Shown here piece by piece: positions 7,166 to 48,031 of a stretch of DNA of 64,000 bases (positions are counted from its first letter, which is position 1; each line of letters begins with the position of its first letter). Both the position numbers and the translations under genes were made by a program. The stretch comes from Azolla caroliniana (taxonomy: Eukaryota > Plantae > Polypodiophyta): NCBI GenBank assembly GCA_043228905.1, contig JBHGNT010000016.1:14570001-14634000 (forward strand), in the 5' to 3' direction. The notes below the pieces were generated by a model. It was not told where the DNA came from, made no database searches, and worked only from the letters and a program-made list of their open reading frames with translations.

Positions 7166-8822
7166 TGTTGGGGAACAAGTCCATCTAAGTGGGATTTGGA
7201 TGAGAACCAGACGAGACGGATCAGATGAGCCGAAGGAAGGAACCGGATCAAATGGATCCAGAAGGAGTTCGCCCGAACCTGGTATGAGCCAACAAATAGG
7301 AACATATTAGTAAATAGTCCAAAAGTTATATAAGTATAAACATAACTAGGGCAACATTGTTATGAGTAGTTATCATCATTATTGTTGTACAGAGTGAGAG
7401 AGAGAGAGAAACTAAATCAGTTTCTGCTATAACCGCCTGAAGGCGAAGATACAGAGCTCGAGGTCGTTGCCTCTGAGTCTTATTTTGTTGTGCCCCTCCT
7501 CTATAGTGATCTTGTTCGGAGTTAGAGAATTCCCGTGGTTTTCCCCGATTAGGGTTTCCACGTTAATATCATGTGTCGACCCATTTCGACTTTAAGTACA
7601 TTAATCTTTATTTCTGTTCTATTTCTTCCACTGTGATTGAGACTTGGTTGTGGCCAAGCACTATTTACGACAATCTGGTATCAGAGCGAAGTTCTAAACT
7701 TCAAGCAAAGAAAGAAGATGGAAGAGTCATTAGGTAGCATGTTCAAGCTCACCGGCTCCACCTACCCAGTCTGGAAGTCGAAGATGAGGGACATATTAGT
7801 GGTAAAAGATCTCTGGCTGCCGGTACAGTTTGGGGACAAAATACCAGACAAGATGGATGCCACGACCTGAGAAGTAATGCAGATGAAGATGACGGCATAC
7901 ATTCGATGCTTCATCGACATGAGCCTATACAATAACTTTAATGAAGAGAACCAAGCCAATGAGCTTTGGGAGAAGATTTTGGAAAGGAGAGGAATGTTGG
8001 CAATCATGACAACTGAAGAAGAGTTGTTGCTGCACCGAGGAGAGTGAGCTGCATCTTGTTAGCGACGAAATGACGTGGGTGGTCGACTTTGGCGCGTTGT
8101 TCCATCTAACCCCCGAACAGAAGTGTTTCTCATCTTACAAAGCCGGAGATCACGATTGTGTCTGGATGGGGAATGAAGGTGCGTGCTGAATTGTTGGCAT
8201 AGGAGATGTGTTGGTGATGACGTCAACGGGGTGCAAGTTGTTGAAAGATTTCTTACGCGTTCTAGAGGTTCAGTTGAACCTGATATCGGCCGGTCGGCTA
8301 GATGATGAAGGTTACATGGGTAGCATCTGCAATGGAGTCACGAAGTTCAACAAAGGAAGCCTTATCGTGGACCGAGCTCGGAAGATCAACATGTTGTCGT
8401 GAAGATTCACAGCCATAGTGAGAAAACCGGGGCTATTAGGAATATCAGCGGGGTGCGGTGTGAGCACTCCCCCTTGTATAAACATGTAAGATAATGGGAT
8501 ACCTTTATGGCGCCTGTTAGCTCGGTTGAGAGCTCGTACGTCCTAGGGGGTTTCACTTCTGCGTTGTCTCCTGTGCAAGACCCCACTCGGCACGACGAGC
8601 TCGCAAGCTCCTTGACCTATGGCTTGGCAACTGACCGCTGCTGTAACCTAATCTACCTCAGTCTGGCTCAAATCTGGAGTTGTATCTCACTCTTGTATAT
8701 ATATATATATATCTGTGTGTGTGTGTGTGTGAGGTTCTATGCATTTGTGTCGATGTCAGTGTCTTTGGAGATCTTTCTTTCCGTTTCTCTACATAAGTAG
8801 TGTGTTGAGTCTGTGTTGCACG

Positions 8823-8881
<59 letters not shown>

Positions 8882-9025
8882 CTCTGTTCGGTAGCCTTCG
8901 GTACACATCCGGAATCGCCCCGGTCTATGCCACAGTCAGCGCAACCGGGAACAAAGAGAGTCAGTCTCCCAATATAATATCTCTCTCATCCGAGACCCCC
9001 ATGGTCCTGCCTCTTTTCAACACGT

Positions 9026-9675
9026 TGTCGTGAAGAAAACCGTCCCTTAGCGCAATCGGTGCATAGTGCGCATGAACCGGCTCTTCACGCGTGCGTGCCC
9101 TTTAATGTATATAATAGAGAATTAGGTACAAAGGTATATCCTAGGTAGTTAGATTCGGTAGGTAGGAAGTTAATGAGGGAAACGGCTCCCTTCTTGAAGC
9201 TATAAAAGAGAGGGAGACGCGGGGAGAGGGGATCGCGCATTGAGGAGGATGAAGTGCTGTCGGACCGAAACCGAACGCTTCTCCTCTGTTCGTTCTCCAT
9301 CGCTCTTCTCTGTAGGTTTTCGGGAGGCTCGCGCTGCTTCGAGGAACGCCCGTGTGCTTCCGGCAGCACCTCCATCCTATCCACTTTTCGTGCGCAGACG
9401 AGGAGGCATCAACATCTGTTCGCCGGCCTGTTCGGTTGTAACTGCTTGCGTGCTCTGTTGTTTATTTGTCATTGGTTAATATACAAACATTCGTGTCTCT
9501 CTGTCTCTGTGTCCATTCGTGTCTTCCGCGTTGACGGGTCGTGTTCCTGTGTTTCTTTGCTCATACGTAACCGGGCGTCTCTCTCTTTCTCTTTCCCCTT
9601 CTACCACCTGCTCTTCGGTTCAAGACCCCGGTGGTCCCGCCTCGTTTCTCCACGCACGCGCGTAGTAACGCGACA
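9026..9675 (+). mobile_element. Solo LTR E of the TGTCG..CGACA clade, inside the 5' LTR of D
   Basis: TSD ACGT on both sides; TATAAAA at 9201; U5 end resembles that of A/B (AGACCCC..GGTCCCGCC..CACGCACGCGCGTA). Confidence 0.9.
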
Positions 9676-9703
9676 ACGTACTCGCGGATTACCGCGACAT
9701 ATT

Positions 9704-9721
9704 TGGTGAACCCGACGTGAA
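9704..9721 (+). promoter_or_regulatory. PBS complementary to tRNA-Trp(CCA), element D
   Basis: TGGTGAACCCGACGTGAA matches the recalled 3' end of plant cytosolic tRNA-Trp (...TTCACGTCGGGTTCA-CCA); 4 nt after the LTR. Confidence 0.8.
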
Positions 9722-10071
9722 AGGACGACAAGGGAGGATGGAGTTGGAAGACGAAGACTTCGTAGAGATGGTGGCCGAAGTGGTGATGGAGTTCGGATGA
9801 GTGACGATGAGACAAGAAGTGGCGCATCAAGCTATTGAGCGAGTGGTCGAAAGAGTGGACAGAGTCACATTCTACTTGGAAGCCTACAACGCAGAAATGG
9901 AGGTGCGAGGCGTAGATGAGGCATTGAGGCTAGAGTTCTTCTGTCGGGTTGTCGCCGTCCATATGCACACGGAGAGTAAAGGAGCTCTGAGAAGCTCATA
10001 GTTCGTGGGAGGCCTTTGAAGAGGCGCTCCTGCAAGCATACGGAGGACGGCCGAAGAGCCGGGGACAGTGC

Positions 10072-10854
10072 TGTCGCGGAATTCCGCGGGGGTCTTGGAC
10101 TAGGGAGTAGAGGGGGAATGGGAGCTTAACCTTCGACCTTTGAGCTCAAGAGGAAAGGAGAAAGAATAAGAGGTTAGGATGGTAGAGAAAATAGAGACAA
10201 GATACATCAACAAACTATATTAAGAATCCACTATACGATTACAACCATGGCCGCGTAAGCCAAATCAAAATCCTAGAGGAAACCCTAACCGAATAGGTAA
10301 AGAAGAAGAAGAAGAAGAAGAAGAAGAAAAAGAATGAAACCCTAAAACGAGATCCTAAAACCCCAAACCCTAAAACGAAATAGGGATCATTAAAACCCTA
10401 ATGGTCTACCCCGAAACAACAAAATGGCGACTCCCCAATGAAAACCCCAAATGTGGAAGCCCCTCCTCACTCGAAATAGGCGACCCCTTCACAAGAGACC
10501 CCTCACTCCCTTTTATAGTAGTAAGGGGTGAGGCATATTACAAAAGGAGAGGTCAAATCCCCTTCTTTCAATCGGGAATATTTTTCCTTGATGTTAAATC
10601 GATGGGCCTTTAACTCTCTCCTCTCACATTCACACTCAATGCCCACTACTCCCTACACCCATTCTTCATGTACTTTCCTCTAGTCTACAAACTGCACATC
10701 ACATTTACACCCCACACTTTACTTTTCCTTCTTACATTTTTCTATTTACTCCTATGTTACAATTTTCCCATATATATATGTGCAATGTTGCACATCTCGT
10801 TTTCTTCGTTCCGCTCGAGTTTTCTTCGTTCCATGGCCGAAAATCCTGACGATA
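10072..10854 (-). mobile_element. Solo LTR F in the gag of D
   Basis: TGTCGCGG left end and GACGATA (decayed GACA) right end; flanks GTGC/GCAC are both derivable from GCGC; D gag resumes afterwards; contains AAACCCTA telo-boxes and (GAA)n. Confidence 0.75.
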
Positions 10855-12070
10855 GCACGATTTCGACCAGTGGGTTGCATCGGCGAAGACCCACCGGGGC
10901 GCAACGAAGGCATTCCAGGAGTTCAGGCGGCGCTTTACTCGGCTCCCAGAGCGGGAACAAAGACTGGTAGGGGTGGACAAAGTCCTGTTGTTTGTTAGGT
11001 TGATCATCCAAGCGGAATGGGAGGCTGTCGGAATTGAGCTCGAAGACGATGACGGAGCGAATTACCTTACTAAGGACCGGTCGGAAGGCGAAGACGATGA
11101 GGAGCGGTCTGCCAAAGGGCAAGGGAAGATAACGCGTGATGACGCATCATCACAACAAGAAGGACTGGGGAAGCTCGATGTCGAGGCCCTAGTTTGGGAA
11201 GCGTATGAGGCTATGAACACGATGGTCGAAGAGGAGGAGAGATCTGACACGCGGTCGAAGTTCAGAGACTCGAAGCTAGTTGGCCTTCTGGATAAGACGG
11301 ATGTGGCCCATGCAGAGGCCGGAGGACGGTACGACGGGAGAGGGTGTGGAGCAAGAAGCTCTCTCGACTTGTGGAGAAAGACCGGCCGAGGAGGTCAGAT
11401 TCAAACAGATAAGGATCGTAGGTTCGGAACGAGACCAACAATTTTGGGCACGATAGGCCGAAACTCCGGACATTGGAGAAGTAAAGATGGATGCGCGATT
11501 AAAGATGGATGCGGTGAAGAGCCCTCCACACCAATTCTGGAGACTTCAGCAGTCGAGCCCGAGTGCTGTCATGATATGGCAAGACTCGAACCCATGACCT
11601 TATGCTACATGGGTCAAGCGCTTGACCATTAGATTATACGTTGTAATACGTAAAATATTATTTTCATTTATGTTTTATTATTGAAAATTGATGTATATTC
11701 CAGATTTCTCTGGAACATTATAGAAACTTCAGGAGTATTCCTTAGAACACTATAAAAGGAGGCACAAGGCATTATTTCGAACCAAATCGGTTCAACGCTA
11801 GTCTTAAGCCTCCTAGTTACTGTACATTTTCTTCACATAATATATATCTTTTCTTATCATCACTCTCTCTCTCTCTCGATCTCTCTCTCCCTCCCTCTCC
11901 CTCCCTCTTTCCTTCTCTCGAGAGTTCTTCACCTCTCTTAGTACTAATACTTCTTTTAGTACTAAGTCCTTCTCTGTCTTAGTACTGTTCATGACAGTTT
12001 GAACCGATTTGCCCCACCTTCTGTCTCTCTCATTTCCTACTAATCTCTTATTCCTCTTTTCTTTCATCCC

Positions 12071-13222
12071 ATGGCCACTGTTAGCGCTGAAGAATATCAA
12101 TCTGTTTTCTCGGAATTTCAATGCTTGAAAGAGAAGTTCCATGCTTTGGAACAAGAAAACCAACGGTTGCTGGGGGATCTTCAGCGAATCTCCTTAGAAA
12201 AGCAGCAAACGCAACAACAACATGGGGAACTTGCGTTACACGTGCAACAACTCGAAGCAACCATCATAGCGATGCAACAACAAGGGCCCGGAACACAAGG
12301 GATTCATAAAGAACCCAAGATTGGCCTTCCCACGAAGTTCGATGGAACGCGATCGCAGTTTAGAGGGTTCCTTAACCAGGTACGATTAGTTATTCAAATG
12401 CATCCTTCCCGGTATCCCATCGATGCATCACGAGTGGGTTTAGTAGGCACTTTGTTAAGTGGCTCAGCGTTGGCATGGTTCGCTCCACTATTAGAAAAGG
12501 AATCTCCATTACTCAACAATTTTGAAGAGTTTCTAGGTGAGTTTAAAGCATGTTTCGAAGATACTGACAGCATCAGGACCGCAATCAATAAAATTCGGCG
12601 ATTACGCCAAGGTGACCGTCCAGCCTCCGCATACGTTGCAGATTTTCGCCTACTCGCCGTTGATATCCCTTGGGATGATCAAGCGTTGATGGAGCAATTC
12701 CGTTATGGTTTACGCAACGATGTCAAGGATTTACTCTTGACCTTCCCCGAAGAGCCAAAGTCCTTAACAGAAGCAATCAGTCGCGTGGTGAGATGTGACA
12801 ACCGCCTCTTTGAGCGACGTTCGGAACGACAGCTACAGATGCCGAGGGCAAGATCAGAGCCCACCTACGCCTCAGTGGTAACAAGACCTTTTCCGAGGGA
12901 GTCATATAATGTGCCTCCAGCGAATACTCCGACTCCGATGGAGATTGACACTACACGTTGTCGAGGGCCATTATCCGAAGAAGAAAAGCAGTGATGCCGT
13001 ACAAATCGACTATGTCTTTACTGCGGTGGACCAGGACATATTGCAATAAATTGCCCCCATAGGCCAAGAAGACAGGTAAACCAAATAGTCGTTAGTTCTA
13101 ATTGTACTAAACTTGAGCCTATTTCAGTAGGGATATCTGATAGTCCTAATAGTACTAATAGCCCAGATCTAGCGAACAAATTTGATGTCCTTAGTCAGTT
13201 AGAAGAAGAGTTAAACGACTAA
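12071..13222 (+). pseudogene. gag: Chromovirus gag (one in-frame TGA at 12992-12994, then a CCHC knuckle)
   Basis: KFDGTRSQFRGFL, LRQGDRPASAYVADF, TPMEID; CLYCGGPGHIAINC after the stop. Confidence 0.9.
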
Positions 13223-13248
13223 GTCTAGCCAAAATAGGAGCCGTTTGG

Positions 13249-15165
13249 TTGGACAGCCCTAGATCTGTGCAGCCCATTAGTGGTTCCATTCCCTCTAAGC
13301 AAGTTAGTGATGTGTTCGTAGCCCAAGTAATAGTTAGTACTAAAAGTACCCCTCCAATACATGTCCTAGCACTCCTAGATTCTGGAGCTAACTCTTGCTT
13401 TATGGATAAGAAATTTGCTCAAGCTCATAAGATATCCCTAAGAAAACTCCAGTGTCCAGCCTCTGTAGTAGTCATTGATGGATGTCCCATTGCTTCCGAA
13501 AATATCATAGAAGAGTCAGAGCTCATTAATATTGTCCTAGATAACTTAGCATGTGAATTTAATATTATTAGTATCCCAGAACATCCCATAGTTTTAGGAT
13601 TACCGTGGTTCGAGTTACATAACCCAGACATAGATTGGAGAACAAGAGAAATCCGGTGTCGACAAACCCAAGGGTCAACTCAGAAGATGGCAACCATTTC
13701 GCTACGTCAGTTGCGTAAAGAAGGGCACAAGGAGGAAATGTTCCTCTTTGCAATATCAGTAAACCCCTCCAACACCACTAAAGAAGAATGCAACGTTCAA
13801 CTTCCCGAGAAGTATCGTCATTACGCCGATGTGTTTGATAAAATACAAGCCAACACACTTCCTCATCATCGACCGTACGATTGCCCCATCGATTTACAAC
13901 TGGGAAAAGAGCCGCCATGGGGACCGATCTACAATTTGTCACCAACCGAGCTGGAAGTCCTTCGGGCCTATATAGAGGAGAATTTGGAAAATGGTTTCAT
14001 CCGGCATTCGAAATCTCCAGCGGGCGCACCCATTTTCTTCATCAAGAAAAAGGATGGATTGCTTCGTCTCGTTGTAGATTACCGTGGCCTGAATAAGGTT
14101 ACAATTAGGAATAGGTATGCTCTTCCCCTTATCTCACGTCTTTTAGAATGGATCAATGATGCCAGGTTCTTCACGAAGATTGACTTACGGGGAGCATATA
14201 ACCTCGTACGGATCCGACCACGAGACGAATGGAAGACCGCGTTTCGCACCAGATATGGGCACTTCGAGTATACGGTCATGCCGTTCGGCCTCACTAATGC
14301 ACCGGCAGTCTTCCAGCACATGGCTAATGATATATTCCGAGATCTTTTGGATGATTGTTTGATCATCTCTTTGGATGATCTACTGGTTTATTCAAAGACC
14401 CAAGAAGAACATGATTCTCATGTACTATTAGTACTAAAACGACTTCGAGAACATGGTCTGTATGCAAAGCTGGAAAAATGTAGTTTCAGATGCAACCAAG
14501 TGGAATTTCTCGGCTACATCATTTCGTCAGAAGGCATCTCCATGGACCCAGCTAAGGTCAAAACGGTGGTAGAATGGCAGACTCCGTGTTCGGTGCGGGA
14601 TGTGCAATGCTTCCTAGGCTTTGCCAATTTTTACCGGAAGTTCATACAAGATTACTCAAAGATCATTCTACCTCTCACACAACTTACCAGGAAGGGACAA
14701 CCATTCATCTGGTCTGAAGAAACGGATGTGGCTTTCGAGAGTCTTAAAAAGGCATTTACCTCGCCTCCAATTCTAGCTCATGTCGATCCGGAAAAACCAT
14801 TCATTATCGAAGCTGACGCATCGGATTTTGCATTGGGGAACATTCTATCACAACAGGGGAATGATGAGAAGCTACATCCTGTGCCTTTTCACTCACACAA
14901 GTTTGACGCCGCCGAAATCAACTACGAAATTCATGATAAGGAGCTATTGGCAATAGTGGATTCTTTTATGCAATGGAGGCATTTTCTGGAGGGATCCTCT
15001 CATCCGGTCACCGTATTTAGTGACCACAAGAACCTTGCCTACTTTCAGGATGCTCGTGTGTTGAATCGATGTCAAGCTCGGTGGGCCCACTTCCTCATGC
15101 GTTTTGACTTCAAAATTACATATCGTCCGGGGAAGCACCAAGGGAAGGCAGATGCATTATCACGG
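13249..15165 (+). pseudogene. pol: Chromovirus pol, part 1: aspartic protease, RT, RNase H (cut by the B insertion)
   Basis: LLDSGA; LRLVVDYRGLN; MPFGLTNAPAVFQ; catalytic motif reads SLDD (YLDD expected); ADASDFA, KELLAI, DHKNL, KADALSR. Confidence 0.95.
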
Positions 15166-15295
15166 TGTCACGTTGTTACGCGCGTGCGTGGAGAAAGGCG
15201 GGACCACGAGGGTCTTGGAAGAGAGAGTGATGGAGCGTAGGGAGTCGTGCTTCACTGTTTCTGGGGCATCCCAGAAACACACCGGAAGCAACCGA

Positions 15296-15341
<46 letters not shown>

Positions 15342-16167
15342 TTGTCGTGAAGAATTTCGGCCATAGGCGAAAACCGGGAAACATTGTCTACATCGGCGGG
15401 GTGCAGCGTGTGTACGCACCCATGTACATTTGGTGTGAATATCGAGGGCGCCTTTATGGCGCCGAAGAGTAGTCAAGTCGGGACAGATGATCCCATGAAA
15501 GTCGGGATTTGTCCCACATTGTAACGCGTCCCTCCCCTTGTTCTATAAAAGGGAGGGAACGCCCTTTGTAAAAGGGTTGCCCATTTTTGCATTTAGAGGG
15601 TATACCAGTAGGTTTAGGGTTAGGTTTCTTCTACTACTTCTTCTTTCCCTTCGTGTTCGCTTAGGGTTTGCTTCAGCTCATCTCCTGCGCAAGACCCCGC
15701 TCGGCGCGACGAGCCCGTGAGCTCCCCGATGGTGGCTTGGCAGCAGACGACTACTGTAACCTACTTCAGCCTGGCTCGAAGCCGGGAGTGTATTCTCCTT
15801 ATATATATATACATATACGTTTGCGTCTGTCTGCGTATATTGGTGTCTTGTTGGTGTCGGGTAATCCACTCCTTCCCTGCGTTTCCTGTACATAAGGGCG
15901 TGAGTCGGGTCGGGCTGTGTGTGCGTGTGCGTGCGTGGGTGAGCGTGAGTCGGTGTTAAGCATGCTCACTCTCTCTCACTCTCTCTCACTCTCTCTCCCT
16001 TCGGTTGCTTCCGGTGTGTTTCTGAGATGCCCCAGAGGCCGTGAAGCACGACTTCCTACGCTCCGTCGCTCCCTAGTCCAAGACCCCCATGGTCTCGCCT
16101 TTCTCCACGCACGCGCGTAACAACGCGACATATTTGGTGAACCCGACGTGAAAGGCGGCAAGGGAGG

Positions 16168-17103
16168 ATGGAGTTGGAAGACGACGACCTTGCGGAGATG
16201 GTGGCCGAAGTGGTGTTGGAGTCGGCACGAGTGGTGATGAGGCGAGAAGCAGCGCAACAAGCGGTTGGGCGAGTGGTCGAAAGAGTCGGCCGTTTCAACG
16301 GGGACAAAGGCCCATCTTACTTGGAAGCCTACAACGCGGAAATGGAGGAGCGTGGCGTAGACTAGGCGTTGAGGCTGGAGTTCTTCTGCCGGGTCATAGC
16401 TGTCCGGATGCATGCGGAAGTAAAGGAGCTCCGTGAGGCTCATAGTTCGTGGGAGGCCTTCGAAGAGGCGCTCCTGAAAGCATACGGAGGATGGCGGAAG
16501 AGCCGGGGATGGCACCACTTCGACCAGTGGGTAGCATCGGCAAAGACTCACCGGGGTGCAACGAAGGCGTTCCGGGAGTTCGAGCGATGACTTGCTCAGC
16601 TCCCAGAGCGGGAACAAGGTTTGGTGGGGGCGGACAAAGTCCTTTTGTTCGTCAGGTCGATCAACCGAGCGGAACAGGAAGCCATCGGGATTGAGCTCGA
16701 AGACGATGATGGAGCGAATGGGCTTACGGAGGACTGGTCGAAGGTCGGAAAGGTGTGCCAAAGGCTAGACAAAGAGCGAGCCGAGAAGGCCAAGAGGAAG
16801 GTACGCGACGGCGTGCCATCACAGCGGGAAGAGGCCAAACGGCAAAGAGAGTCGGCAAGGGTCGGCGTTGGGGCCAGGATTGCGGAGGCGTACACAGCGC
16901 TCAAAGCGATGCTCGAGGAAGAGGGAGGATCGAGGCCAGAAGCCGAGACCAAGGAGACGGACCTGCCCCACGCGACGACGGAAGATTGGTACGACGGTAC
17001 CACGGGAGAGGGTGCGGAACGAAACGCCCTCTCGACTTGCCGAAATAGAACGGCCAAGGACGAGGCTGAGATACCGATCGCGGAACCGGAACGTTGGGAC
17101 TAG
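16168..17103 (+). pseudogene. Gag-like ORF of A (with stop and frameshift)
   Basis: GRFNGDKGPSYLEAYNAEMEERGVD*ALRLEFFCRV...SWEAFEEALLKAYG resembles a retrotransposon capsid N-terminal region; homologous text in D (9738) and B. Confidence 0.6.
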
Positions 17104-17875
17104 CGGTTTCGGGCGTGTCAGCCGGAGATCTCGGTCATTGGAGAAGCAAGCCCAGACGGGGCTTGCGTGATCGGTAAGAAGACGACCGCCGACCACGGAG
17201 AGCCGGTGGCTACGGACAAGGGCGAAGAACGGACAGGCGATTCTTTGTGTCTTCCCACACTTACTCCCGAGACGATGGCAGTCGGGCCCGAGTGCCCACG
17301 TAAGTCCCAAGCGGAGGAAGGCGGTGGCGATAGACCAAGAATCACCGGCGAGACGATACGAGGAAGGAGCGGACGAAAGCCCACGGACCCGATTCCGGAG
17401 AAATCGGCAATTTGGCCCGTATGCCCGTGTAAGACCGAAGAGATGGATAACAATACCGAGGAGTCCTGGCACGATGCCAGCGAAGACGGATGGGAAGAGG
17501 CCTGCGAGGAGGTCGAGGACGGACACGGCACGAGAGGATCAGCATTCCGATACGGGTGGAGCGTAATCCGGTCGTGGATCGTTCGATCGGGGCCGGAGTC
17601 GACATGAAAATGCCGATACGGAAGGGGGTGCGGGACGAGCTGCCCTCTTTTACATGGGGAGAAAGACCGACCGGGCGAAGGTCGAGATTACGGACGAGAA
17701 CTGGGTGGAGCGGACTCCCGGATAACCATTCCAGGAGGGAGGAAGAGAACAGGCGTACGAAGAGGCCGAGGACACGGTACATCGGTACCACGGGAGAGGG
17801 TGCGGAGTAAACCGCCCTCTCGGCATGAGGAAAAGGACGACCCAGGAGAGGGTCGGGAAGAGAAATCGGGGAGGC

Positions 17876-18235
17876 CTACGGAGGATCCTTCACACCGGTT
17901 CTAGAGACTTCGACAGTCAGCAACGCGGTCGACGTAAGACCAAGATACTGACGGTGGCGGCGAGGTGACGAAGGCAAGGGCTACGGAAGGGAGGTCTACG
18001 GAGGATCCTTCACACCGGTTCTAGAGACTTCGGCAATCGGCAACGCGGTCGACGTAAGACCAAGATACTGACGGTGGCGGCGAGGTGACGAAGGCAAGGG
18101 CTACGGAAGGGCGGTCTACGGAGGATCCTTCACACCGGTTCTAGAGACTTCGGCAGTCGGCAATGCGGTCGACGTAAGACCAAGATACTGACGGTGGTGG
18201 CGAGGTGACAAAAACAATGGGCATAAGGAAGTCCG
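17876..18235 (+). repeat. Three tandem 120-bp units in A
   Basis: CTACGGAGGATCCTTCACACCGGTTCTAGAGACTTCG... starts at 17876, 17996 and 18116. Confidence 0.95.
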
Positions 18236-24200: not shown

Positions 24201-24230
24201 AGTAATTAGCCGATTAACACAAAAGAATTT

Positions 24231-24243
24231 TGGCACGCCCGGT
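24231..24243 (+). promoter_or_regulatory. PBS complementary to tRNA-Arg (probably the TCT isoacceptor), element C
   Basis: TGGCACGCCCGGT matches the recalled tRNA-Arg 3' end (...CCCACCGGGCGTG-CCA); lies 11 nt after the LTR. Confidence 0.7.
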
Positions 24244-35200: not shown

Positions 35201-37129
35201 CATTGTGAAGATCGACAGAGGCCAAGCGGACCACTACGGGGTGTTCCTCGGACGCGGAGAACACTGGTTATATGACGTAACAAGGGGCATGCATACGGTC
35301 GGTTGAGGGCCGCGGGACGAGCACGTGTACGAAAGGAGATCGCGACAAACAGCCTATCGGCAGGTCAAACGAGCCTATGAAGAGGCAAGCGCGAGGACGG
35401 AATTGGAGCAGACGGTTCAGAACCGGCAGAGGCCAACACGACAATCGGGGATGCGGATTACGGAAGACTGTTTGCTCACTACGACCGGAATCTCTCACAT
35501 TTCATCGGATTTGGCACATATTGGTGGACATGCGGTTTGGTGGGGGAGGATGTCATGGAGATTCACAACCATAGTGAGAAAACCGGGGCTATTGGGAATA
35601 TCGGTGGGGTGCGGCGTGAGCACTCCCCCTTGTATAAACGTGTAAGATAATGGGGTGCCTTTATGGCGTTGAATAGGAGTTTAGTTGAGAGTCGAGACAG
35701 AGAATCCCATGTAATACGGGATTTGTCCCACATTGTTAGGCACCTCCCTCCTTGTGCTATAAAACGAAGGGAGGGTCCCTTGTAAACGGGTTGCCCATTT
35801 TGAGTGAGGAGGGTATACTACTTAGGTCAAAGGTATGTTAGTTTTCTCTTCTTCTTATTAGGGTTTCAGGTAGGTCTTTTTCTTTGTTGTCGTATGGGTA
35901 GAGTCTTTGTCTGTTTAGGGTTTAGCTCGGTTAAGAGGTCATATGTCCTAGGGGGTTTCGCTTCCGCGCCATCTCTTATGCAAGACCCCTCTCGGCGCGA
36001 CGAGCTCGGGAGCTCCCCGACCGGTGGCTTGGCAGTTGACCATTGTTGTAAGCTAATCTACCTTAGGTGGCTCAAAGCCGGAGTTGTATCTCGCTCTTGT
36101 ATATATATAAATATGTGAGGTTCTGTGCATCTATGTCGGTGTCGGTGTCGGTGTCTTTGGAGTTATTTCTTTCCGTTTCTGTACATAAATAGCGTGTGTT
36201 GAGTAGGTGTTGCGCTCTCTCTCTCTCTCTCTCTCTCTCCTTTGTTCGGTAGCCTTCGGTACACATCTAGAATCGCCCCGGTCTGTGCCACAGCCGGCGC
36301 AGCCGGGAATAGAGAGAGTGAGTCTCCCGGTATCATCTCTCTCTCATCCGAGACCCCCATGGTCCTGCCCCTTTTCGACACATACTCGTTCTACCGCGAC
36401 AATGTTCTACTTGATGCACGCCCGGATATGTTGGGAGGAAGTGAATGTGATATTCGACACTGTTGATGATCTGTGGCACAAAAGGTTATGCCACATGAGC
36501 CAGAAAGGGATGTGAAGACTTGCCGAAGATAACCTCATTCCGGCAGTGAAAGATGTGTAGCTTGAGAAGTGCACCGACAGTTTGGCCGGCAAGGAGAACC
36601 GAACCTCTTTTCGGTCAAGACCACCGACAAGAACGGAAAGAACCACTAGATCTTGTGCATACAGATGTATGTTAGGTGCACGCGAAGTCACATGCTAGGT
36701 CGTAGTACTTTGTGATGTTCATAGATGACCACAACCGAAAGTTGTGGGTCTCACCGTTGAAGACGAAGGACTAGGTATTATCCGTCTTCAAGGAATTCCA
36801 TGTGAGAGTGAAAAGGGAAACCGGACGGAAGCTGAACGCGGTTCGAGCAGACAACAGAGGCGAATATCGGGGGCAGTTCAAGGAGTACTGCCGATCGAAG
36901 GGAATCCAGCTCAAATTTACCGTGCCGAAGGATATAGAACTAAACGGATTAGCCGAAAGGATAAACAAAACCATTATGGGGAGAGTCCGGAGCATGTTGG
37001 CACATGGAAAGTTGCCCAAGATGTTCTGGGTTGAGGCACTAATGACGGTGAGATATGTGATAAACAAATCACCCTCAACACCGTTGGAAGGAGACACACA
37101 CCACAAAGAATATGGACCAGTAAAGACGT

Positions 37130-38103
37130 TGTCGTGAAGATTTTCGGCAACAGTGTGAAAATCGCGTGGGAAAAGGAAAATCGAGAAGGTGTAATGTGCA
37201 CACGTATGAAAGGAGTGATGGTTACATATGTATGTTAGCACGTTAATGTGCACATGTGATGGGTGTTTAGTTTTTCATTACACAATATAAAAATAAGCCT
37301 AGGGCCTATTGGCATACAATGACGTGCAAGTAAGGTTTTGAACCTTACACCTCAAGGATAGGAGGCAATTAACATACCATTAAGGCTATGTTGTTTTCTT
37401 CATTATATTTTTCACATGTAACTACTCGTACATGAGAGCTTGAATGAGGTACATGGTCATCATGCATCATATGTGATGCATTCATGCCAAATGGCAATCA
37501 TGCATCACATGCATTTCATGCATTGTATGCATGTCTTACACCCTCACATGCATCATATGCATGGGGGCATCTATATAAGAAGGAAAGGAAGGGAAAGGAA
37601 ATCAGGTGACATATGGAATTAATAAGATAATAATAAAAGCTTAGTTGTCTCATTGGCAATGTATCTTGTCTCTCAACCTTGAGGTGAAAGGTTCAAACCC
37701 AGGACTTGTATTCCTACCCGTATTTATCTATCTAATTATCTACCTTTAATACTTTCTCGCTTGTGCTAGTCCTTCCGGTCCAGAACACTGACGGTCCAAC
37801 TTCATTGTCTTGCATGATTCCTTCCATCCTCCATCACCACTTGCGGATAGAGGCCGGTGCTTGTCTACGCGCGCACATGTGTGACGTGCTTCGTGACATC
37901 TTTGTGGTGCGGTAAATATTTTCTCTCTCTCCCTCCCTCCTTTTTCCCAGTCAACCCAGACAAGTGTCTTCGACAACAAGAATGACCCAATTGTAAACCT
38001 AAACGACCGATTCCTTACAAGCACAAGTCACCCAATTTATCCTCCTTGGAAAAGACCCCGGAGGTTCCGTTCGACCAACCCGCAGGCACGGATTTCCGTG
38101 ACA
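37130..38103 (+). mobile_element. Solo LTR G of the TGTCG..TGACA clade
   Basis: TSD ACGT (37126-37129 and 38104-38107); the host Copia integrase resumes; TATATAAG near 37572. Confidence 0.9.
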
Positions 38104-38252: not shown

Positions 38253-41200
38253 TGTTGAGAAGCAAGCTCAACAAAGGTATGTGATGCTTATTGAGAAATA
38301 AGTTATAGTAGCTATTAGCTAATTAGCTACTAGTGGACATAAAGGTGAAACAACTATTTAGCTATGCACAACTATTTAACTACTAACAACTATTTAGCTA
38401 CAGACAGCTAATTAGCTGCATATATAAGTCACTTATATACTTAGGTAAAAAGTAAATGTAGTAAGTAGAAGAGAGTAGTAGTGAGAGTAGTGTAGAGAGT
38501 TGTAAGAATAGAAAGAACAAAAAACAAACGAGAGCAAGTTGAGCTCTGCGTGTAATGAAGTAGAAGCTTTTGGATTGTGCAAAGGTAAGTCTCCTTCCCC
38601 TTCCCTTTTCTGTCTTGAGCACTAAACGATCCAACACATCACGATCCGTTGTGCCCACAAAAGAGCCGTAGCACCTTCGTAACATGGTATCAGAGCTGAG
38701 TTGCTCATAAAGAATATTAGAACAATACAGATCTGAGAAAGGTTGTTTCTTTGTTTGCTGATCTGAATCAGAGAGTTGTTTGTTGAAGTAATTGTAGCAA
38801 AAGACCTAATTTGAAAGAGAAAATGGCTACAGAAAATGGAAGCCAAATAGTCACAAAAAAATAAGATAAAAACAATTTCTCAGCATGGAAATTCAGAATG
38901 ACAAATTTCCTAATGGGAAAAGGATATTAGGATTACATTGAAGGATACCTAGAAGAGGCTCCAAAGATCCTTGAAGAAAATGCAACTGCTGCATAGATTA
39001 TAACATTTAAAGAATGGAATCAAGGGGAAAGAAAGGTATTGCATTGACTCTCACTTAGCATCTCAAATTGGATGCTTGGACACATACAAGATGTTATGCT
39101 TCCAAAAGAAGCTTGGGACAGTTTAGTAAAACTGTTTGTAGTGAACACAAAAGGCTAGAAAGCTTTAGTTGAAGACTGAGCTAAATACCTTGGAAAAAGG
39201 TAAAATGTCAGTGAATGAGTATGCTCTGAAAATAAAGAGCGTATGTGAATCACTTGTTTCTATCGATGTGAAGGAAGAGAATGATGATAAGGTGGAAATA
39301 TGCTTAAGAGGTTTAGGATCTCAATATAAAAGCTTCAAAACATCTATTCTCACAAGGGATAGCATCCCAAGTTTTCCAAATGTGATTTCAATGCTTGTAG
39401 TGGAAGAAAGAAATCATATGGATGATGTAAACAAAGGAAACTCTAAGACTGAGGAGCAAGCCCTCTACAATAGTGTTGGAAGAGGCCGAGGAAGAGGCCA
39501 TGGAAGATTTGGTTCAACTAGAAGCAACAATAGTTATCAAGGAAGAGGACAATAGGTTACAAGTGGAAGAAACAACATCAGAGGTAGGGGGAGCAATCGA
39601 GGAAGAGGTAAGCAAACTTATTTGAATGATGATGGTTTTTGGTATTGTGGAAAACCAAGCCATACACAGGTTGAATGCTATAAAAAGCAAAATGATGAAA
39701 AAAGAGGGAAGAGACAGCAAAATAATTATGCCTCAACTAGTGAAGACTGTGATAAAGACGATGCATTTGTGGTGCAACATGAAACAGCAGCAATGGCTGA
39801 ATGTTCACAGAGATGTAATGAAGAGTTTATGTGGTATGTAGATTCTGGGGCATCTAATCATATGACAGGACATGCAAACTGGTTTGAAAGTCTAAGAGAA
39901 CTAGAGATTCCTAATTATGTATAGACAGGTGATAATACCACTCACCAAATAGAGCATGTTGGAGATATCCCATTGTGGGAAGAAAAAGGGAAAACAAAAT
40001 ATATGCTGAATGTTATGCATGTGCGAAACCTTGCAAAAAATTTGATTTCTATTGGACAAATAGTGGAGCAAGGAATGCAAGTTAAGTTTAAGCAAAGTGG
40101 ATGCTTTATAGAGAAACGGGGAAAGCTTATTGCAAAAGGAAAACATCAAGGAAGAATGTTTGTGTTAGATGTGGATATGCCTAAAAAGATTACAGTCATA
40201 TTTGCAGAAGGAATGAGTGTAATCTCAGATGTGGAAATGTGGCATAAAAGAATTGGTCACATAAGTATGCAAACCTTGAAAAATATGTTGAGGAAAAATG
40301 CAGTGGCTGGACTGCCTAAGTTGAAAGACTGTAAGATAAGCAAAATATGTGAAGCGAAACAGGTTGCCTTTCCCTCATGAAAGACATGTGAGCAAAAATT
40401 TGTTGGATTTTCTACATACAGATATATGGGGACCAACAAAAAATGCATCAATTAGTGGATGTAAGTTTTATGTAACATTCATTGATGATTGCTCAAGGAA
40501 AACATGGGTTTACTTCATGAAAGAAAAAAATGAAGTTTAAATGCATGGTAGAAAAGCAGGTTGGAACTAGAATAAAATGCCTAAGATCTGATGGAGGAGG
40601 AGAATACTTCTCAAATGAGTTTTCTGATTTTCTATGTAATCAAGGAATAAGGAGACAGTTTACATGTAGATATACTCCACAGCAAAATGGAGTTGCTGAG
40701 AGAAAAAACAAAACTCTGGTGAACATAGCAAGAGCCATGATGACAAAAATATATATGCCATTGTATTACTGGGAAGAAGCTGTAAACACAGCAAATTATA
40801 TTCTAAATAGATGTATAACATCTGGAATGCATGAAGTAACTCCTGAAGAATGTTTCTATGGCAGGAAGCCTAGTTTAGAACACTTAAAAGTGTTTGGATG
40901 CCTTGCCTATGTTCATGTACCTACTGAAGTAAGAAGTAAGCTTGATCCAAAAGCTGAAAAATGTGTTTTTGTTGGATATTCAGAGGAACAAAAAGGGTAT
41001 AGATGCTATAACCCTTTCACAAAAAAGATTGTGGTAAGCCGTGATTTAATATTTTATGAGTTGGGCAGCTGGTACAGCCAAAAACAAAATGTAGAAACTG
41101 ATGAAGACTGTAAAAATGAAGACAGAGAAAAATTTGAAAATGGAAGAGATTGCCATGGAGATGGAAACAATGTTGGACAACAAAGTTCCACATCAATGGA

Positions 41201-43577
41201 ATGTATTGGACCATCTAGAAGCTCAGGTAGTAAATTTGAATCTAATGCATGGAGTGGAAAAAATGCAAGACACAAAAAATATGATGATAGAAAGGGGAAA
41301 CAGAATATGCAAGAATATGAAATGCTTGATGATGGGTCTAGAAACATGGAAGATGTAGATTCCAATACATCATTGGATGATGAGCTTGGTATAGGAGCCT
41401 TGAAAATCCCTAGTATGGAAAAAGCAATGAAAGATGCACATCAGAAACTCAGAAGATTAGATAGAGAGAAAAATATTGTTGAAAGATTTGGTTATGACAC
41501 ATGGCTATGCATTATGCATACATGTCTAAAGTGGTACACATCCCTAATCCAAATAGTTTTGATGAAGCAAAATCTAATAAGAAATGGGTGAATGCAATGC
41601 AAGAAGAAATAGATGCATTGGCTGAAAACAGAACATGGGATTTGGTGAAGTTACAGAAAGGAAAAAATGTTGTAGGTTGCAAATGGGTCTACAAAACAAA
41701 GCATGATTCCAATGGAAATGTTAGTAGACATCAAGCAAGACTTGTGGCAAAGGGATATGCCCAGATGCATGGAAATGATTATGATGAAACATTTGCACTG
41801 GTGGCAAAAATGGCAACCTTGAGAACACTACTTGTTGTGAGTGCAACCAAAAGATGGTTTCTGCACCATATGGATGTAAAAAATGTCATTTTACATGGTA
41901 ACTTGGAAGAGGAAGTATACATGTGTCAACCACTAGGTTTTGAAGATAAGAAGCATCCAAAATATGTATGTAGGCTGAAAAAGGCTCTCTATGGACTGAA
42001 ATAGGCACCGAGAGCATGGCATAAAGAACTTTCAGAATCTCTGAAAAAAATTTCCTTCAAAATGTCAAAAGCTGATCCATCATTATATGTAAAGAAGATA
42101 AATGATTGCATTGTTGTGATTTTGATTTATGTAGATGATTTAATCATTGGAGGTAATTCCATGGATGAAATAAGCAAGCTGAAAAAAAATCTTGAAATGC
42201 AATTTCATATGAAGGATTTGGGAGAGCTGAGATACTTTCTTGGCATTGAGATGATCAGATCTGAAAGTGGTATATATATGTTGCAAAAACAATATGCGAC
42301 AACTATGTTGAAGAAGTATGGTATGCTTGGATGCAAACCTATTGGTGTACCACTAGATAAGAACTACAAATTGAGGGTTGATTTGGGAGCCAAAATAGAA
42401 GATGTAAACATGTACAGGTCTATGGTGGGTACCCTCATATCTTTGACCATAACAAGACCTAATTGGAGTTATGATGTGGATTAGTTAGCCAGTTTATGCA
42501 ACAACCAACAAAGCCACATTTGGACTGCATTAGAAGAATCTTGAGGTATGTAAAAGCTACTCAGAACTATGGATTGTTTTACAGGGCTGATTTGGACATA
42601 AAGCTGGAAGGATATACAGATGTTGATTGGGCTGGAAGCCAAACTGACAGAAGATCCACAAGTCGATATATTTTTACATTGGGAAGTGCAACTATTTCAT
42701 GGGGTAGCAAGAAACAAGCTACTGTTGCATTATCAAGTACTGAAGTTGAATATAAAGGAGCTGCAATAGCCACCTGTGAAGAGGTATGGATCAGAAGATT
42801 GCTTTCTGATTTGGGAGAGTATATAGATGGTGTAGTCACAATTTGGTGTGACAATATGAGCAGCATTCAAGTGGCAAAAAACCCAGTGTTCCATGCAAGA
42901 ACAAAGCACATTGAATTGCATTATCACTTTGTTAGAGAAAAAGTGATTGATAAAGAAGCGGATTTGTTGTATATAAGTATAAACCAGCAAGTTCCTGATA
43001 TTCTTACGAAGGGATTGAGCATGGAAAAACATACACAGTTTATAGACATGATGGGAGTTATAACCATCGGCATGGTAGTTGAAAAGCATGAAGAAAAGAA
43101 GATTGAAGATGATCCCAAGAAAGGATAAGTTGAGCTTGAGGGGGAGTGTTGAGAAGCAAGCTCAACAAAGGTATGTGATGCTTATTGAGAAATAAGCTAT
43201 AGTAGCTATTAGCTAATTAGCTACTATTGGACATAAAGGTGAAATAGCTTTTAGCTATGCACAACTATTTAGCTACTGAAAGCTAATTAGCTAATGGCAG
43301 CTAATTAGCTGCATATATAAGTCACTTATATACTTAGGTAAAAAGTAAGTGTAGTAAGTAGAAGAGAGTAATAGTGAGAGTAGTGTAGAGAGTTGTAAGA
43401 ACAGAAAGAACAAAAAACAAACGAGAGCGAGTTGAGCTCTGCATGTAATGAAGTAGAAGCTTTTGGATTGTGCAAAGGTAAGTCTCCTTCCCCTTCCCTT
43501 TTCTGTCTTGAGCACTAAACGATCCAGCACATCACGATCCGTTGTGCACACTGAAGAGCCGTAGTGCCTTCGTAACA
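38253..43577 (+). mobile_element. Full-length but degenerate Ty1/Copia; LTRs 38253-38684 and 43147-43577
   Basis: TSD ACTTG; PBS TGGTATCAGAGC 38685-38696; PPT TTGAGGGGGAG; LTRs clearly diverged (about 20 differences by eye). Confidence 0.97.
38823..43128 (+). pseudogene. Copia gag-PR-IN-RT-RH with multiple stops and frameshifts
   Basis: VDSGASNHM, HTDIWGP, RSDGGGEY, QNGVAERKN, ARLVAKGY, YVDDL, YTDVDWAG, RTKHIELHYHFVRE. Confidence 0.97.
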
Positions 43578-44600: not shown

Positions 44601-46054
44601 ACTCCTAACATAAGTGGTTCAACAAATGTTAGTCAACCGATAGAGACGATCGAAGGTAATTGTGTTGATGGTAATTGAACCTTGCAAATGCCATTCACTT
44701 CACAAATTTTGTAGGGGAGTTCTCAAAATGAAGAAGAGGAGAGCATTGTGGATACCTTGATAACTATGTGATATGTTCAAATTGATATATTAATGTTTAC
44801 ATCTAAGTTTGGCAATTTTGACAATTTATGAATATCGTCTACATTTTAGGAGTTATGAATTTATCAAAATTGTTTATGAATATTGTATGCATTTCTTGAG
44901 TTGTGAATTTATGGATGCTTGTGAGCACTAAATTTATAGATGATGGCATTAAGGATTACAATGTTACCTCTTATACTTAAAACATTTTCAAGTCTAACAA
45001 TAGATGTAACTTCCACTTCTGGAACCTACATCTGCTCAAGATGGTGAAACCATTAATATTAACTTGTGCCTTGAGTTAACCATTGTGATTTTCTTTAAGT
45101 TAACTACATTTCCTATCTGCAAACAATCAACGTTTAAAAATTTATTGAGAAACTATTCAATTTTAGAAATTATCATTTTGAAACTTGTTAAATCTCAAAA
45201 AAATAGCAAATTTACATGCTATTTAAAACATGTGATATTGGTGTATCAAGTATTTGAAAATTGCCTAAAATCGCAAGATTATAAAAGGAATTTATAACTG
45301 GAATGCACGATCCTTCCACTTGTGAATGCGAATGTGTTGGAGGGGAGGGAGCCCTAGATCTCCTTGATTCGGCCAATATAATCGGCCACAAATAGATCTT
45401 TCTACTAGACGTTGCTGAGCTCCTGTCTGACCTGCATCTTTCTGGTTGTTGTGGTAGCGGCAAAAAATCCGTTTGAGATTCGCCCACAGATCTTTTGGCA
45501 TTTTGGCGTCCCAGATGTAGCTCAAAAGTTGGTCCCTCACACAAGACACGTAGTAAATCACCCTGCTTGCCGCTTACTCCTAGGTCGGAATGTTTGTGTG
45601 TGTCGAATATGGGGTTGCATCGTTTGCTCCTTCGACGTAACCCTAGTATCCATGTTCCTGTTGTCGGAAGGAAAGGGGTTCGTCTGTGTATCGTCTTTCT
45701 CTTTTCGTGTCAGCTGCTAAGGATTCTCAACCCTTGCGCTCTGATACCATGTAAAAAGATATGCGTGGAAGTATTATGCGAAACACAAAGTACACAGTTA
45801 GTTATCTGAAACCACAACAGTTAGGTATACGCAAAGATATAGTGGGAGAGACAGAGTGAATAGACAAGAAAACTTTCTATTACAAAAATGACTCTATACA
45901 TGAATGTGTTCAGAGGGTACTTTTTAAATATAGGCCCGGACAGAGGACTGATAAGTTCTAAGGGCTTGTCGGCTCCCCACTGATCTTCCTCCGATCTGGC
46001 TCTCGGCTTCTTCAGCTAATCCCGGCCTAAACAATTTGCCTTCGTTCGATCCGG

Positions 46055-47739
46055 TGTCGTGAAAATCCGTCACTATGTGCGGATCGTGAGGCGGAATCGC
46101 CGGGGTTATGGACGGGAAGGAAATAGGGCTCACACACACAACACAAGGAAGGCTTACACAAACAAGGCACGAGTATTCGAACGTGTTTGTGAAAAGGACA
46201 AGTGCATGGGCAAGCCCGAATCAACCCCTAGTCACAAGGCGAACAAATGCACATGAGGAAGGCTTACACACGGACACACAAGGAAAAGGCTTACTTACAC
46301 ACACGAGAGATAGAGTTTCGAATGCCTTTGTGAAAAGAGAGGTGCATGGGCAAGCACGAACGCTCCCTTGTTACAAGACACGCAAACACACAAGCAAGGT
46401 TTACACACGGGAGACACAATTTCGAACGCCTTTGTGAAAGGAGAGGTGCATGGGCAAGCCCGAACGCTCCCTTGCCATAAGTCGCACGAACACACAAGAA
46501 AGGTTTACACACGAGAGACACAATTTCGAACGCCTTTGTGAAAGGAGAGGTGCATGGGCAAGCCCGAACGCTCCCTTGCCATAAGTCGCACGAACACACA
46601 AGCAAGGTTTACACACGAGAGACACAATTTCGAACGCCTTTGTGAAAGGAGAGGTGCATGGGCAAGCCCGAACGCTCCCTTGCCACAAGTCGCACGAACA
46701 CACAAGAAAGATTTACACTAACACGCAAGACACAATTTTGAACACCTTTGTGAAAGGAGAGGTGCATGGGCAAGCCCGAACGCTCCCTTGCCACAAGTCG
46801 CACGAACACACAAGCAAGATTTACACTAACATGCAAGACACGTAAGTTTGAATGCCTTTGTGAAAGGAGAGGTGCATGGGCAAGCTTGAAACGCTCCCTT
46901 GTCACAAGACACACAAACAAATAAGCACAAACGACGATAACATATAAGACACATAGGTTTGAATGCCTTTGTGAAAGGAGAAGTGCATGGGCAAGCTCGA
47001 AACGCTCCCTTGTCACAAGACACACAAACAAATAAGCACAAATGACGATAACAAATCAGCACAATCAAGATTTACACATAAGACAAGTAGATGAAAGAAA
47101 ACATTAGTTTATATCAATATAATAGATTCTTTTATAATATAAGAATCATGTTACAATGGGTTGGATGCGAATATGAAGGATTGTTTATAAAGGAATGGGG
47201 GAAGAGAGGTGGAGGAAAGAAGAGAGTGGAGTATAGAAGGAGTTTCTTTGTTGATGATGCCTCTCGATGTTGTTGATCCTTCTTCTTCCACTTTCCAATT
47301 GAGTAGATCTTCCGCGTTCCTTCTCCCTCCCCCCCCCCTTTCTACACTAGAATAGGCTCTTATTTATAGGTTTAGGATTGCTTGCCTTTTCCCCCTAAAA
47401 AAAAGCTTGTCTATATGAGTCAACTTTTCTTTTCCTCACTATTTCTGTTTTCTAGCATCAAATTTCACATGCAAGATATTCTTCGAAAGCTCTTTAGGTT
47501 AGCTTTGTTATGCATCTTTTCTTTTCTAATTTGGACATTTGACGAGGAAATTATGAGCCTTTTACTCGACCTTGCTCCTCATATCCACGACTAGCTTTTC
47601 TTTTCCCACCTTTTTCTCTAATTTTGTCTACTTTCGAAAACCTCTTCTAACTTTTTATCCTTTCATTTATTACTATAGTTGACTTAAGAAAATTAGTTTA
47701 TTTAGACCACAATTTTATTCTCTCATAAACATCACGACA
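46055..47739 (-). mobile_element. Solo LTR H (TGTCGTGA..TCACGACA), 1.7 kb
   Basis: 8-bp terminal inverted repeat; flanks CCGG/CCAG; the host LTR resumes after it; minus-strand TATAAATA near 47368. Confidence 0.8.
46135..47070. repeat. ~104-bp tandem array, about 8-9 units, inside H
   Basis: CGAACGCCTTTGTGAAAGGAGAGGTGCATGGGCAAGCCCGAACGCTCCCTTG recurs with a 104-bp period in the core; outer units are longer and more diverged. Confidence 0.95.
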
Positions 47740-48031
47740 CCAGCTTCCAGCTTCTTCAATTGATCAAGACCATGTTAACCTTGTCACTCAACACGATGGT
47801 GCTCGGCCTTTGGTCACTCGACATCTCAAGCTTGAGGAGGATGGAAGCTGAAAAACGAAAACTGAAAGTCGTGGAGGAAGCGGTGGAAGCTGGATAAGAG
47901 CCGACACGAACCGAAAGCCGAAAAGAGACGAAAACTAGACAAGGGACGACAAGAGCCATAGTCGACAATTGGTAAAGCCGAAGCCGACCGAAAGCTAAAA
48001 GTCAGACACCACACTTGAGATTGAAGGGGCG

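What the first reader, a model, noticed from the sequence alone, without database searches (positions are those of the whole stretch)
8391..47743. Seven insertions with TGTCR..YGACA termini make 4-bp TSDs centred on CpG
Seen TSDs: ATGT/ATGT (8395), ACGT (9026), GTGC/GCAC (10072), ACGG (15166), ACGT (15343), ACGT (37130), CCGG/CCAG (46055). Five show N-CG-N directly on at least one side, and the other two are what methyl-C deamination of GCGC and ACGT would give. The other LTR elements here with readable TSDs have 5-bp ones without this bias (ACTTG, CAAAT, AAAAG, RGTGC). Inference: the integrase cuts symmetrically around a CpG, possibly a methylated one, which would steer insertions into other transposons; all seven lie inside other TEs. 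Sequence-biased 4-bp targets are known for some insect gypsy elements, but I do not know this pattern for a plant clade.
Basis: partly seen in the sequence, partly recalled or inferred. Interest (0 to 1): 0.78.

Follow-up and report, generated by a model that had tools for sequence, protein, structure and literature searches.

The report
Plant jumping genes insert at CpG
These plant jumping genes insert almost only in the middle of a CG dinucleotide and duplicate four bases, a habit already recorded for the moss Phygy lineage they likely belong to; whether they sense DNA methylation is untested.

Summary
All seven 4-bp duplications are in the window as stated, each centred on CG or its decay products TG/CA (chance about 1e-5). 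The rule holds elsewhere: of 85 distinct 3' junctions of the same LTR type in metagenome contigs, 75 have central CG, 10 TG/CA and none anything else (background CG 3.9%). The motif is V-CG-B, best ACGT. The pattern is already known in plants: REXdb lists Phygy of Physcomitrium patens as 4-bp NCGN with a tRNA-Trp primer site. The window's elements are solo LTRs and pol-less derivatives. Their likely autonomous partner shares the LTR tip and primer site, has Gag homologous to a P. patens protein, and its relatives lack chromodomain and aRH, so these are likely Phygy-like; no tree with REXdb references could be built. The title's termini rule fails: a Tcn1 element here has TGTCA..TGACA ends and a 5-bp duplication. 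A generic flexible-step preference is excluded (TA 0 of 85). Methyl-CpG sensing and steering into transposons are untested. The scan noted NCGN duplications before, in a fungal window (unreviewed).

The parts
8395..36401 (+). Element A: pol-less (non-autonomous) Phygy-like LTR element inserted in a copia pol; TSD ATGT/ATGT; LTRs 8395-9699 (interrupted by B) and 35551-36401, 88% identical; hosts B, K and D
9704..9721 (+). Primer-binding site of A, 4 nt after the LTR; its complement is an 18-nt CCA-ended plant small RNA ('miR894'); identity as the tRNA-Trp 3' end is recalled
9026..9675 (+). Element B: solo LTR (650 bp) of the family whose full copies carry Gag-protease-pol; inserted 20 bp from the end of A's 5' LTR; TSD ACGT/ACGT; empty site in A's 3' LTR reads ACAT
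10072..10854 (-). Element K: solo LTR related to the C-type LTRs, in A's gag; TSD GTGC/GCAC (GCGC with one decay on each side)
15166..30591 (-). Element E: non-autonomous, same family as C, inserted in the RNase H of the Tcn1 element; TSD ACGG/ACGG; PBS 23162-23145; 3' LTR partly deleted
15343..20348 (+). Element C: non-autonomous; LTRs 15343-16130 and 19572-20348, 96% identical; PBS 16135-16152; TSD ACGT/ACGT; inserted in E's 3' LTR
16168..16806 (+). Broken Gag-like N-terminal domain of C (two stops), homologous to DUF4100-type Gag of P. patens A9U5C3 (27%, E 3e-13), Adiantum and Riccia
37130..38103 (.). Element G: solo LTR of a related family in a copia integrase; TSD ACGT/ACGT
46055..47739 (-). 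Element H: 1.7-kb solo LTR with an internal ~104-111-bp tandem repeat; a relative in L092 is followed by the same PBS; TSD CCGG/CCAG
11567..32653 (+). Control D: Tcn1-type chromovirus (chromodomain-like C-terminus, 13-nt self-priming complement), TGTCA..TGACA termini, 5-bp TSD AGTGC/GGTGC
23763..30412 (+). Control F: young pol-deleted gypsy with long extra ORFs, LTRs 99.8% identical, 5-bp TSD CAAAT
38253..43577 (+). Control I: copia, 5-bp TSD ACTTG
53578..53915 (+). Control: solo LTR with 5-bp TSD AAAAG

Best explanation
The seven insertions are solo LTRs and pol-less derivatives of what is likely a Phygy-type Ty3/gypsy lineage, and its integrase likely joins the two CA ends four bases apart across a V-CG-B target, reading the CG sequence itself. 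Shown: 4-bp TSDs, the V-CG-B rule, shared LTR tips and PBS, and a Gag-protease-pol partner whose relatives lack chromodomain and aRH. Inferred: the partner mobilises A, C, E and kin in trans; the target is kinked at the central step as in the 4-bp foamy-virus intasome; base contacts narrow the generic YR centre to CG; and TG/CA centres are mostly decay of methyl-C after insertion. A candidate determinant (inferred only) is the short acidic D-R-G-E/D-L start of the core alpha-2 helix, at the place of PFV Ala188.
For: 85 distinct 3' junctions: centre CG 75, TG 6, CA 4; position 1 A55 C18 G10 T2; position 4 T47 C18 G18 A2; positions 5-20 near background. Unfiltered, 100 of 100 non-PBS matches are CG (88), TG or CA. 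Loose ends at the LTR end in the best-matching runs start ACGT (29 contigs, X3) and CCGT (18, X4). TSD decay 10/85 against LTR CpG controls 8/85 and 14/75. L044 has the same LTR tip and PBS, then Gag-protease matching P. patens A9U5C3 (E 6e-27) and Riccia (E 2e-49), and a pol start matching P0216 (48%, E 7e-32). 120 pol relatives show no precomputed chromo or aRH domain; a rescan of 7 at E 0.1 found no chromo and only one sub-cut-off RVT_3 hit overlapping the ordinary RNase H. REXdb Phygy: 4 bp (100%) NCGN, tRNA-Trp 81%. PFV consensus VYRB with a bent central YR; PFV integrase is the best solved match of the partner-type integrase (E 6e-20). DRG[ED]L in 90 of 103 aligned relatives.
Against: No tree with REXdb Phygy sequences (file too large), so membership rests on Gag homology, features and elimination; A9U5C3 is not labelled Phygy in any call. 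tRNA-Trp identity of the PBS is recalled. No autonomous copy is in the window and the partner is pieced together from separate contigs (L044, L048, L111, P0216). Of 5 metagenome solo-LTR candidates with both ends, only L106 has matching TSDs (ACGG/ACGG); L040, L078, L082 and L090 do not, which I read as chimeric short-read assembly or recombination but did not show. A has ATGT on both sides, which may mean a TG site was accepted. Most loci come from one series of assemblies of the same or a related host, so this is not a multi-species test. Ala188 contacts bases outside the TSD, so the DRGEL lead need not explain the central CG.
Confidence: 0.7

Rival explanations
1. The integrase requires or strongly prefers methylated CpG (5mC read directly or through its effect on bending), which would steer the family into silenced transposon DNA.
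For: TSD CpGs decay, so these sites are or were methylated. Six of seven window insertions are in TEs, and at least 41 of 85 flanks are repeats. Phygy-into-Tcn1 is the commonest repeated nested pair in P. patens (PMC6911290, passages). A 1992 paper title on CpG methylation affecting retroviral integration in vitro was seen only in a reference list.
Against: Decay shows methylation after insertion, not at insertion. No methyl-reader or chromodomain in pol. Flank CpG O/E 0.87 equals the window's 0.86, and there is no baseline for TE share. TG, which carries a 5-methyl like 5mC, is no commoner than decay predicts (weak). ZAM integrase binds CGCGCg directly in vitro (PMC2527525, abstract), in a fly with little CpG methylation (recalled).
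Confidence: 0.17
2. Same sequence-reading mechanism, but the elements belong to a sister clade of Phygy (for example Selgy, TatI or an unnamed DUF4100-Gag clade of seed-free plants), not to Phygy proper.
For: TatI also has 4-bp TSDs and a tRNA-Trp PBS, and Selgy has 4-bp TSDs. The RT clade found here includes Riccia and Adiantum proteins and no named P. patens pol. Phygy was defined as species-specific.
Against: TatI has aRH between protease and RT; none is seen in full Gag-pol relatives. Selgy uses tRNA-Ala and averages 5 kb, and no NCGN is listed for either. Gag matches a P. patens protein, while the window's Tcn1 Gag has no hit to it.
Confidence: 0.1
3. Only the generic preference of 4-bp intasomes for a flexible pyrimidine-purine step, or chance and ascertainment, produces the pattern.
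For: All retroviruses enrich YR at the centre, most strongly those with 4-bp TSDs, and avoid T at the first position as seen here (PMC4422553, passages).
Against: Under a YR-only rule the expected counts of 85 are CG 14, TG 24, CA 24, TA 22.5; observed 75, 6, 4, 0. The search pattern stops at the LTR end and cannot bias the flank.
Confidence: 0.03

Closest known systems
Phygy, non-chromovirus Ty3/gypsy of Physcomitrium patens (Neumann et al. 2019, PMC6317226; passages and supplementary files 1 and 3 read; files with element list and sequences too large to read)
   Same: 4-bp TSD with NCGN preference; tRNA-type PBS (Trp, recalled for this sequence); no chromodomain, no aRH; Gag homologous to a P. 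patens protein; nests into Tcn1 (PMC6911290, passages).
   Different: Another host (a seed-free land plant, not identified). The window holds only solo LTRs and pol-less derivatives with a long Gag-fused low-complexity ORF. The motif is resolved here as V-CG-B with ACGT best. Phylogenetic membership is not tested.
Prototype foamy virus intasome (Serrao et al. 2015, PMC4422553; abstract and passages)
   Same: 4-bp stagger; VYRB duplication; T avoided at the first and A at the last position; best PDB sequence match of the partner-type integrase.
   Different: PFV accepts any YR step weakly; here the centre is nearly always CG. The Ala188 position is Glu/Asp with a one-residue deletion.
Ginger1 DNA transposons (Bao et al. 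2010, PMC2836005; abstract and passages)
   Same: Gypsy-like integrase, TGTNR termini, 4-bp TSD centred on CG (CCGG 75%, CCGT/ACGG 24%).
   Different: Cut-and-paste DNA transposons of animals with TIRs; prefer CCGG rather than ACGT.
ZAM subgroup errantiviruses of Drosophila (PMC2527525 abstract; PMC5408687 passages)
   Same: Gypsy integrase with intrinsic sequence-specific choice of a C/G palindrome.
   Different: Target CGCG(Cg), centred on GC rather than CG; env-bearing insect lineage.
TatI and Selgy of Selaginella (PMC6317226)
   Same: 4-bp TSD; TatI has a tRNA-Trp PBS.
   Different: TatI carries aRH; Selgy uses tRNA-Ala; no NCGN listed for either.

Membership tests
Phygy | Clusters with REXdb Phygy in RT-RH-INT trees | not testable with these tools
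   REXdb fasta too large to read. My RT tree shows one clade (100/100) with Riccia and Adiantum, apart from Tcn1-like and Athila/Tat-like RTs, but holds no Phygy reference.
Phygy | 4-bp TSD, NCGN | tested here: met
   7 of 7 in the window; 85 of 85 junctions CG or decay.
Phygy | PBS complementary to tRNA-Trp | tested here: inconclusive
   18-nt PBS in A, C, E and relatives; complement is a CCA-ended small RNA mapped to gypsy elements. No call names it tRNA-Trp: ARAGORN found no tRNA in 31 viral loci. The Trp label is recalled.
Phygy | No chromodomain | tested here: met
   No chromo domain among 120 pol relatives or in 7 rescanned; short tail after GPY in 88 of 89. Tested on the partner's relatives, as the window copies lack pol.
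Phygy | No aRH, no extra ORFs; polyprotein spans the internal part; about 8.6 kb | tested here: inconclusive
   No aRH. No complete autonomous copy was retrieved; contigs of the closest pol cluster reach 8.3 kb. Window copies are pol-less.
Phygy | Gag related to P. patens non-Tcn1 gypsy Gag | tested here: met
   C Gag vs A9U5C3 27%, E 3e-13; L044 E 6e-27; Tcn1 Gag no hit. That A9U5C3 is a Phygy product is inferred by elimination.
TatI | aRH between protease and RT | tested here: not met
   Full Gag-pol relatives P0235, P0237 and P0283 have none there (definition).
Selgy | tRNA-Ala PBS, about 5 kb | tested here: inconclusive
   PBS identity is recalled as Trp, not Ala; no Selgy reference to compare.
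Tcn1 chromovirus | Chromodomain, self-priming, 5-bp TSD | tested here: not met
   The seven have 4-bp TSDs and, where an internal part exists, a tRNA-type PBS; these Tcn1 features are met only by control D.

The most novel reading that the evidence does not exclude
A DUF4100-Gag gypsy lineage spanning mosses, liverworts and ferns has an integrase that, without any accessory reader domain, recognises methylated CpG in the intasome itself, so it homes to silenced transposon DNA; each insertion duplicates the target, so copies stack in each other's TSDs and LTR tips.
Probability: 0.15. Interest if true: 0.75.

Novelty: new member of a known kind. Interest (0 to 1): 0.27.

Why it matters
The target rule itself is in print for Phygy, but only as one sentence and one table cell among the papers searched (two papers hold 'NCGN' and 'retrotransposon', one of them unrelated). 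This locus adds a near-absolute V-CG-B logo, non-autonomous derivatives and a lineage that reaches Riccia and Adiantum by protein homology. A plant integrase with strict CpG choice is a ready test case for how intasomes read sequence and whether any reads 5mC, and P. patens has met1 mutants (recalled) to test it. LTR finders set to 5-bp TSDs would miss these elements.

Tried and rejected
No whole genome is held, so no genome-wide mining. Viral-contig scans gave nothing useful: LTR-start pattern 0 hits; Gag alignment 1 weak phage hit, rejected; Gag-protease and pol queries no relatives. So TSDs of Riccia, Adiantum or fungal relatives were not seen. The PBS pattern hit 31 viral loci, none with a tRNA. 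Look-ups of 10 pol clusters named no organism, and no P. patens pol was among the 120 listed hits. The lectin gene at 49685-50326 has close hits only in unnamed metagenome assemblies, so the host is not identified. A link to fungal Ylt1-like elements was looked for in two papers and could not be tested. Rows dropped before the count of 85: 16 followed by the PBS (5' LTRs); 8 whose upstream was unlike the window LTRs (6 CG, 2 CA); 7 duplicates. A T excess at flank positions 6-7 (p 0.015 and 0.043 uncorrected) was not kept. The first laying of contigs did not resolve flanks. Rejected: the termini rule (control D) and the generic YR rule (TA 0 of 85). No structure or complex was predicted.
Full report
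Observation. The window is a stack of nested LTR retrotransposons. Four bases give the best left-right match in each. Empty sites agree. A's other LTR reads ACAT once where B sits. Public contigs lacking K are 783 + 4 bases shorter. A homologous copia has ACA (Thr) where A's site has ATG, and both are one deamination from ACG (ancestry inferred). With local backgrounds the chance of seven CG/TG/CA centres is 8.6e-6. The four 5-bp controls are real. One of them, D, has TGTCA..TGACA ends, a chromodomain-like tail and a 13-nt self-priming complement: a Tcn1-type chromovirus. So the termini in the title do not define the class.

Test outside the window. No genome is held. I scanned metagenome contigs for the 20-nt LTR 3' tip shared by B and C and got 116 loci. 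Sixteen continue into the PBS; of the other 100, 88 have CG, 6 TG and 6 CA as the 2nd-3rd bases, with no filter. After dropping 8 with unlike upstream sequence and 7 duplicates, 85 remain: CG 75, TG 6, CA 4, against a flank CG frequency of 3.9% (P about 1e-93). Position 1 is A55 C18 G10 T2 and position 4 T47 C18 G18 A2, a palindromic V-CG-B with ACGT in 31; positions 5-20 are close to background. Among 15 distinct 5' junctions picked by eye, 10 are CG, 4 TG/CA and 1 CT. In the runs that best hold the window's DNA, loose ends at the LTR tip begin ACGT (29 contigs) and CCGT (18). Limits: most loci come from one series of assemblies of the same or a related plant (B-type LTRs 78-90% identical). 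Only 1 of 5 solo-LTR candidates with both ends has matching TSDs, likely through collapsed assembly, so these data test the target motif and not TSD length.

Decay. TG/CA centres (10 of 85) are as frequent as decay of an LTR CpG next to the search pattern (8 of 85; Fisher p 0.80) and less than at a second one (14 of 75). This fits a target that is CG at insertion and decays later. It says nothing on methylation at the time of insertion. A, the oldest (LTRs 88% identical), has ATGT on both sides, so an occasional TG target is not excluded.

What the elements are. A, C and E have the same PBS four bases after the LTR, a broken Gag-like frame and no pol; B, G, K and H are solo LTRs, and an H relative carries the same PBS. 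The PBS complement is the CCA-ended small RNA called miR894, mapped to gypsy elements (PMC5846777, passages); that it is the tRNA-Trp 3' end is recalled. A profile of the Gag domain finds DUF4100-type Gag-protease proteins of Physcomitrium patens (A9U5C3), Riccia sorocarpa and Adiantum nelumboides. Contig L044 has the B-type LTR tip, the PBS, Gag-protease and the start of a pol that continues in L048 and P0216: the likely autonomous partner. Its 120 listed pol relatives are RT-RH-INT with no chromodomain or aRH, and their RTs form one clade with Riccia and Adiantum, apart from Tcn1-like and Athila/Tat-like RTs. The host is a seed-free land plant by inference (Tcn1 plus this lineage; lectin without close named relatives); it is not identified.

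Comparison with what is known. Neumann et al. [quoted passage not shown] Jedlicka et al. 2019 report GC-rich centres in 4-bp TSDs and Phygy-into-Tcn1 nesting (PMC6911290, passages); E in D is such a pair. Phygy-labelled elements are reported in a liverwort (PMC12885004, passages). TatI is excluded by the missing aRH. Formal membership needs REXdb sequences, which could not be read; those unread supplements also hold the per-element TSDs and may already show the V-CG-B detail. Ginger1 transposons make CCGG/CCGT TSDs (PMC2836005, reached through an earlier scan note) and ZAM integrase binds CGCGCg directly (PMC2527525, abstract). Searches for a description of mechanism or methylation dependence (listings, with passages of some papers) found none, in an open-access library only.

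Mechanism. The foamy-virus intasome cuts 4 bp apart, unstacks a central YR step and has the consensus VYRB (PMC4422553, passages); PFV integrase is the best solved match to the partner-type integrase. The V..B rule here is thus the generic 4-bp geometry (inferred). Flexibility alone fails: it predicts about 14 CG, 24 TG, 24 CA and 22 TA, against 75, 6, 4 and 0. So base readout of CG, or of methyl-CG, is needed. I favour plain sequence readout: no reader domain is present, flanks have ordinary CpG content (O/E 0.87 against 0.86 for the window), and precedents exist. The motif at the PFV Ala188 position is DRG[ED]L in 90 of 103 relatives, one residue shorter than PFV or Tcn1; Ala188 touches bases outside the TSD, so this is only a lead. 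Steering into TEs is unproven: 41 of 85 flanks hit a small TE/repeat library, with no control, and the window is almost all TE.

Verdict. A real and very strong target rule, already recorded for Phygy; this is a likely new member in another host, with a sharper logo and non-autonomous families. Interest 0.27. The open, interesting part is methyl-CpG sensing (about 15%).

Noticed in passing
L061 (LTR end, ACGT, next LTR start) and L092:2692-2733: Two elements separated by exactly one ACGT: a second copy inserted in the first one's TSD. L067, L101 and L108 look like insertions into the CpG-rich LTR tip. Duplication of the target may create self-renewing hot spots; not tested against expectation.
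   Followed up: partly
window 9704-9721, 16135-16152, 23145-23162: The PBS complement equals 'miR894' sequences (first reported in moss); in E the match extends to the GTTTC-starting variants. The annotated miRNA may be a tRNA 3' fragment or an antisense read of this PBS.
   Followed up: partly
window 16168-19500, 32655-35550; L074: The pol-less families keep a Gag N-terminal domain fused to a long acidic, repeat-rich frame, open for over 1400 aa in L074/P0008 with no Pfam hit; possibly a retained Gag of a non-autonomous family.
   Followed up: partly
window 23763-30412: Very young gypsy (LTRs 99.8% identical) with Gag, protease joined to the integrase C-terminal part (RT/RH missing), and a 716-aa coiled-coil extra ORF; no clear PPT or canonical PBS seen.
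   Followed up: no
window 46127-47063: Tandem repeats of about 104-111 bp inside the H solo LTR.
   Followed up: no
window 49219-50326 (-): Legume-lectin-domain gene, the only host-like gene noticed; closest hits are unnamed metagenome proteins (80-88%).
   Followed up: partly
L092:1848-1867; window 9700-9703: Spacer between LTR and PBS is 4 nt in A/B/C/E types and 8 nt in the H type, longer than the usual 2 nt (recalled), implying longer overhangs for 3' processing.
   Followed up: no
L111: Tandem structure integrase-LTR-PBS-gag of the autonomous family (shared LTR or assembly collapse).
   Followed up: no
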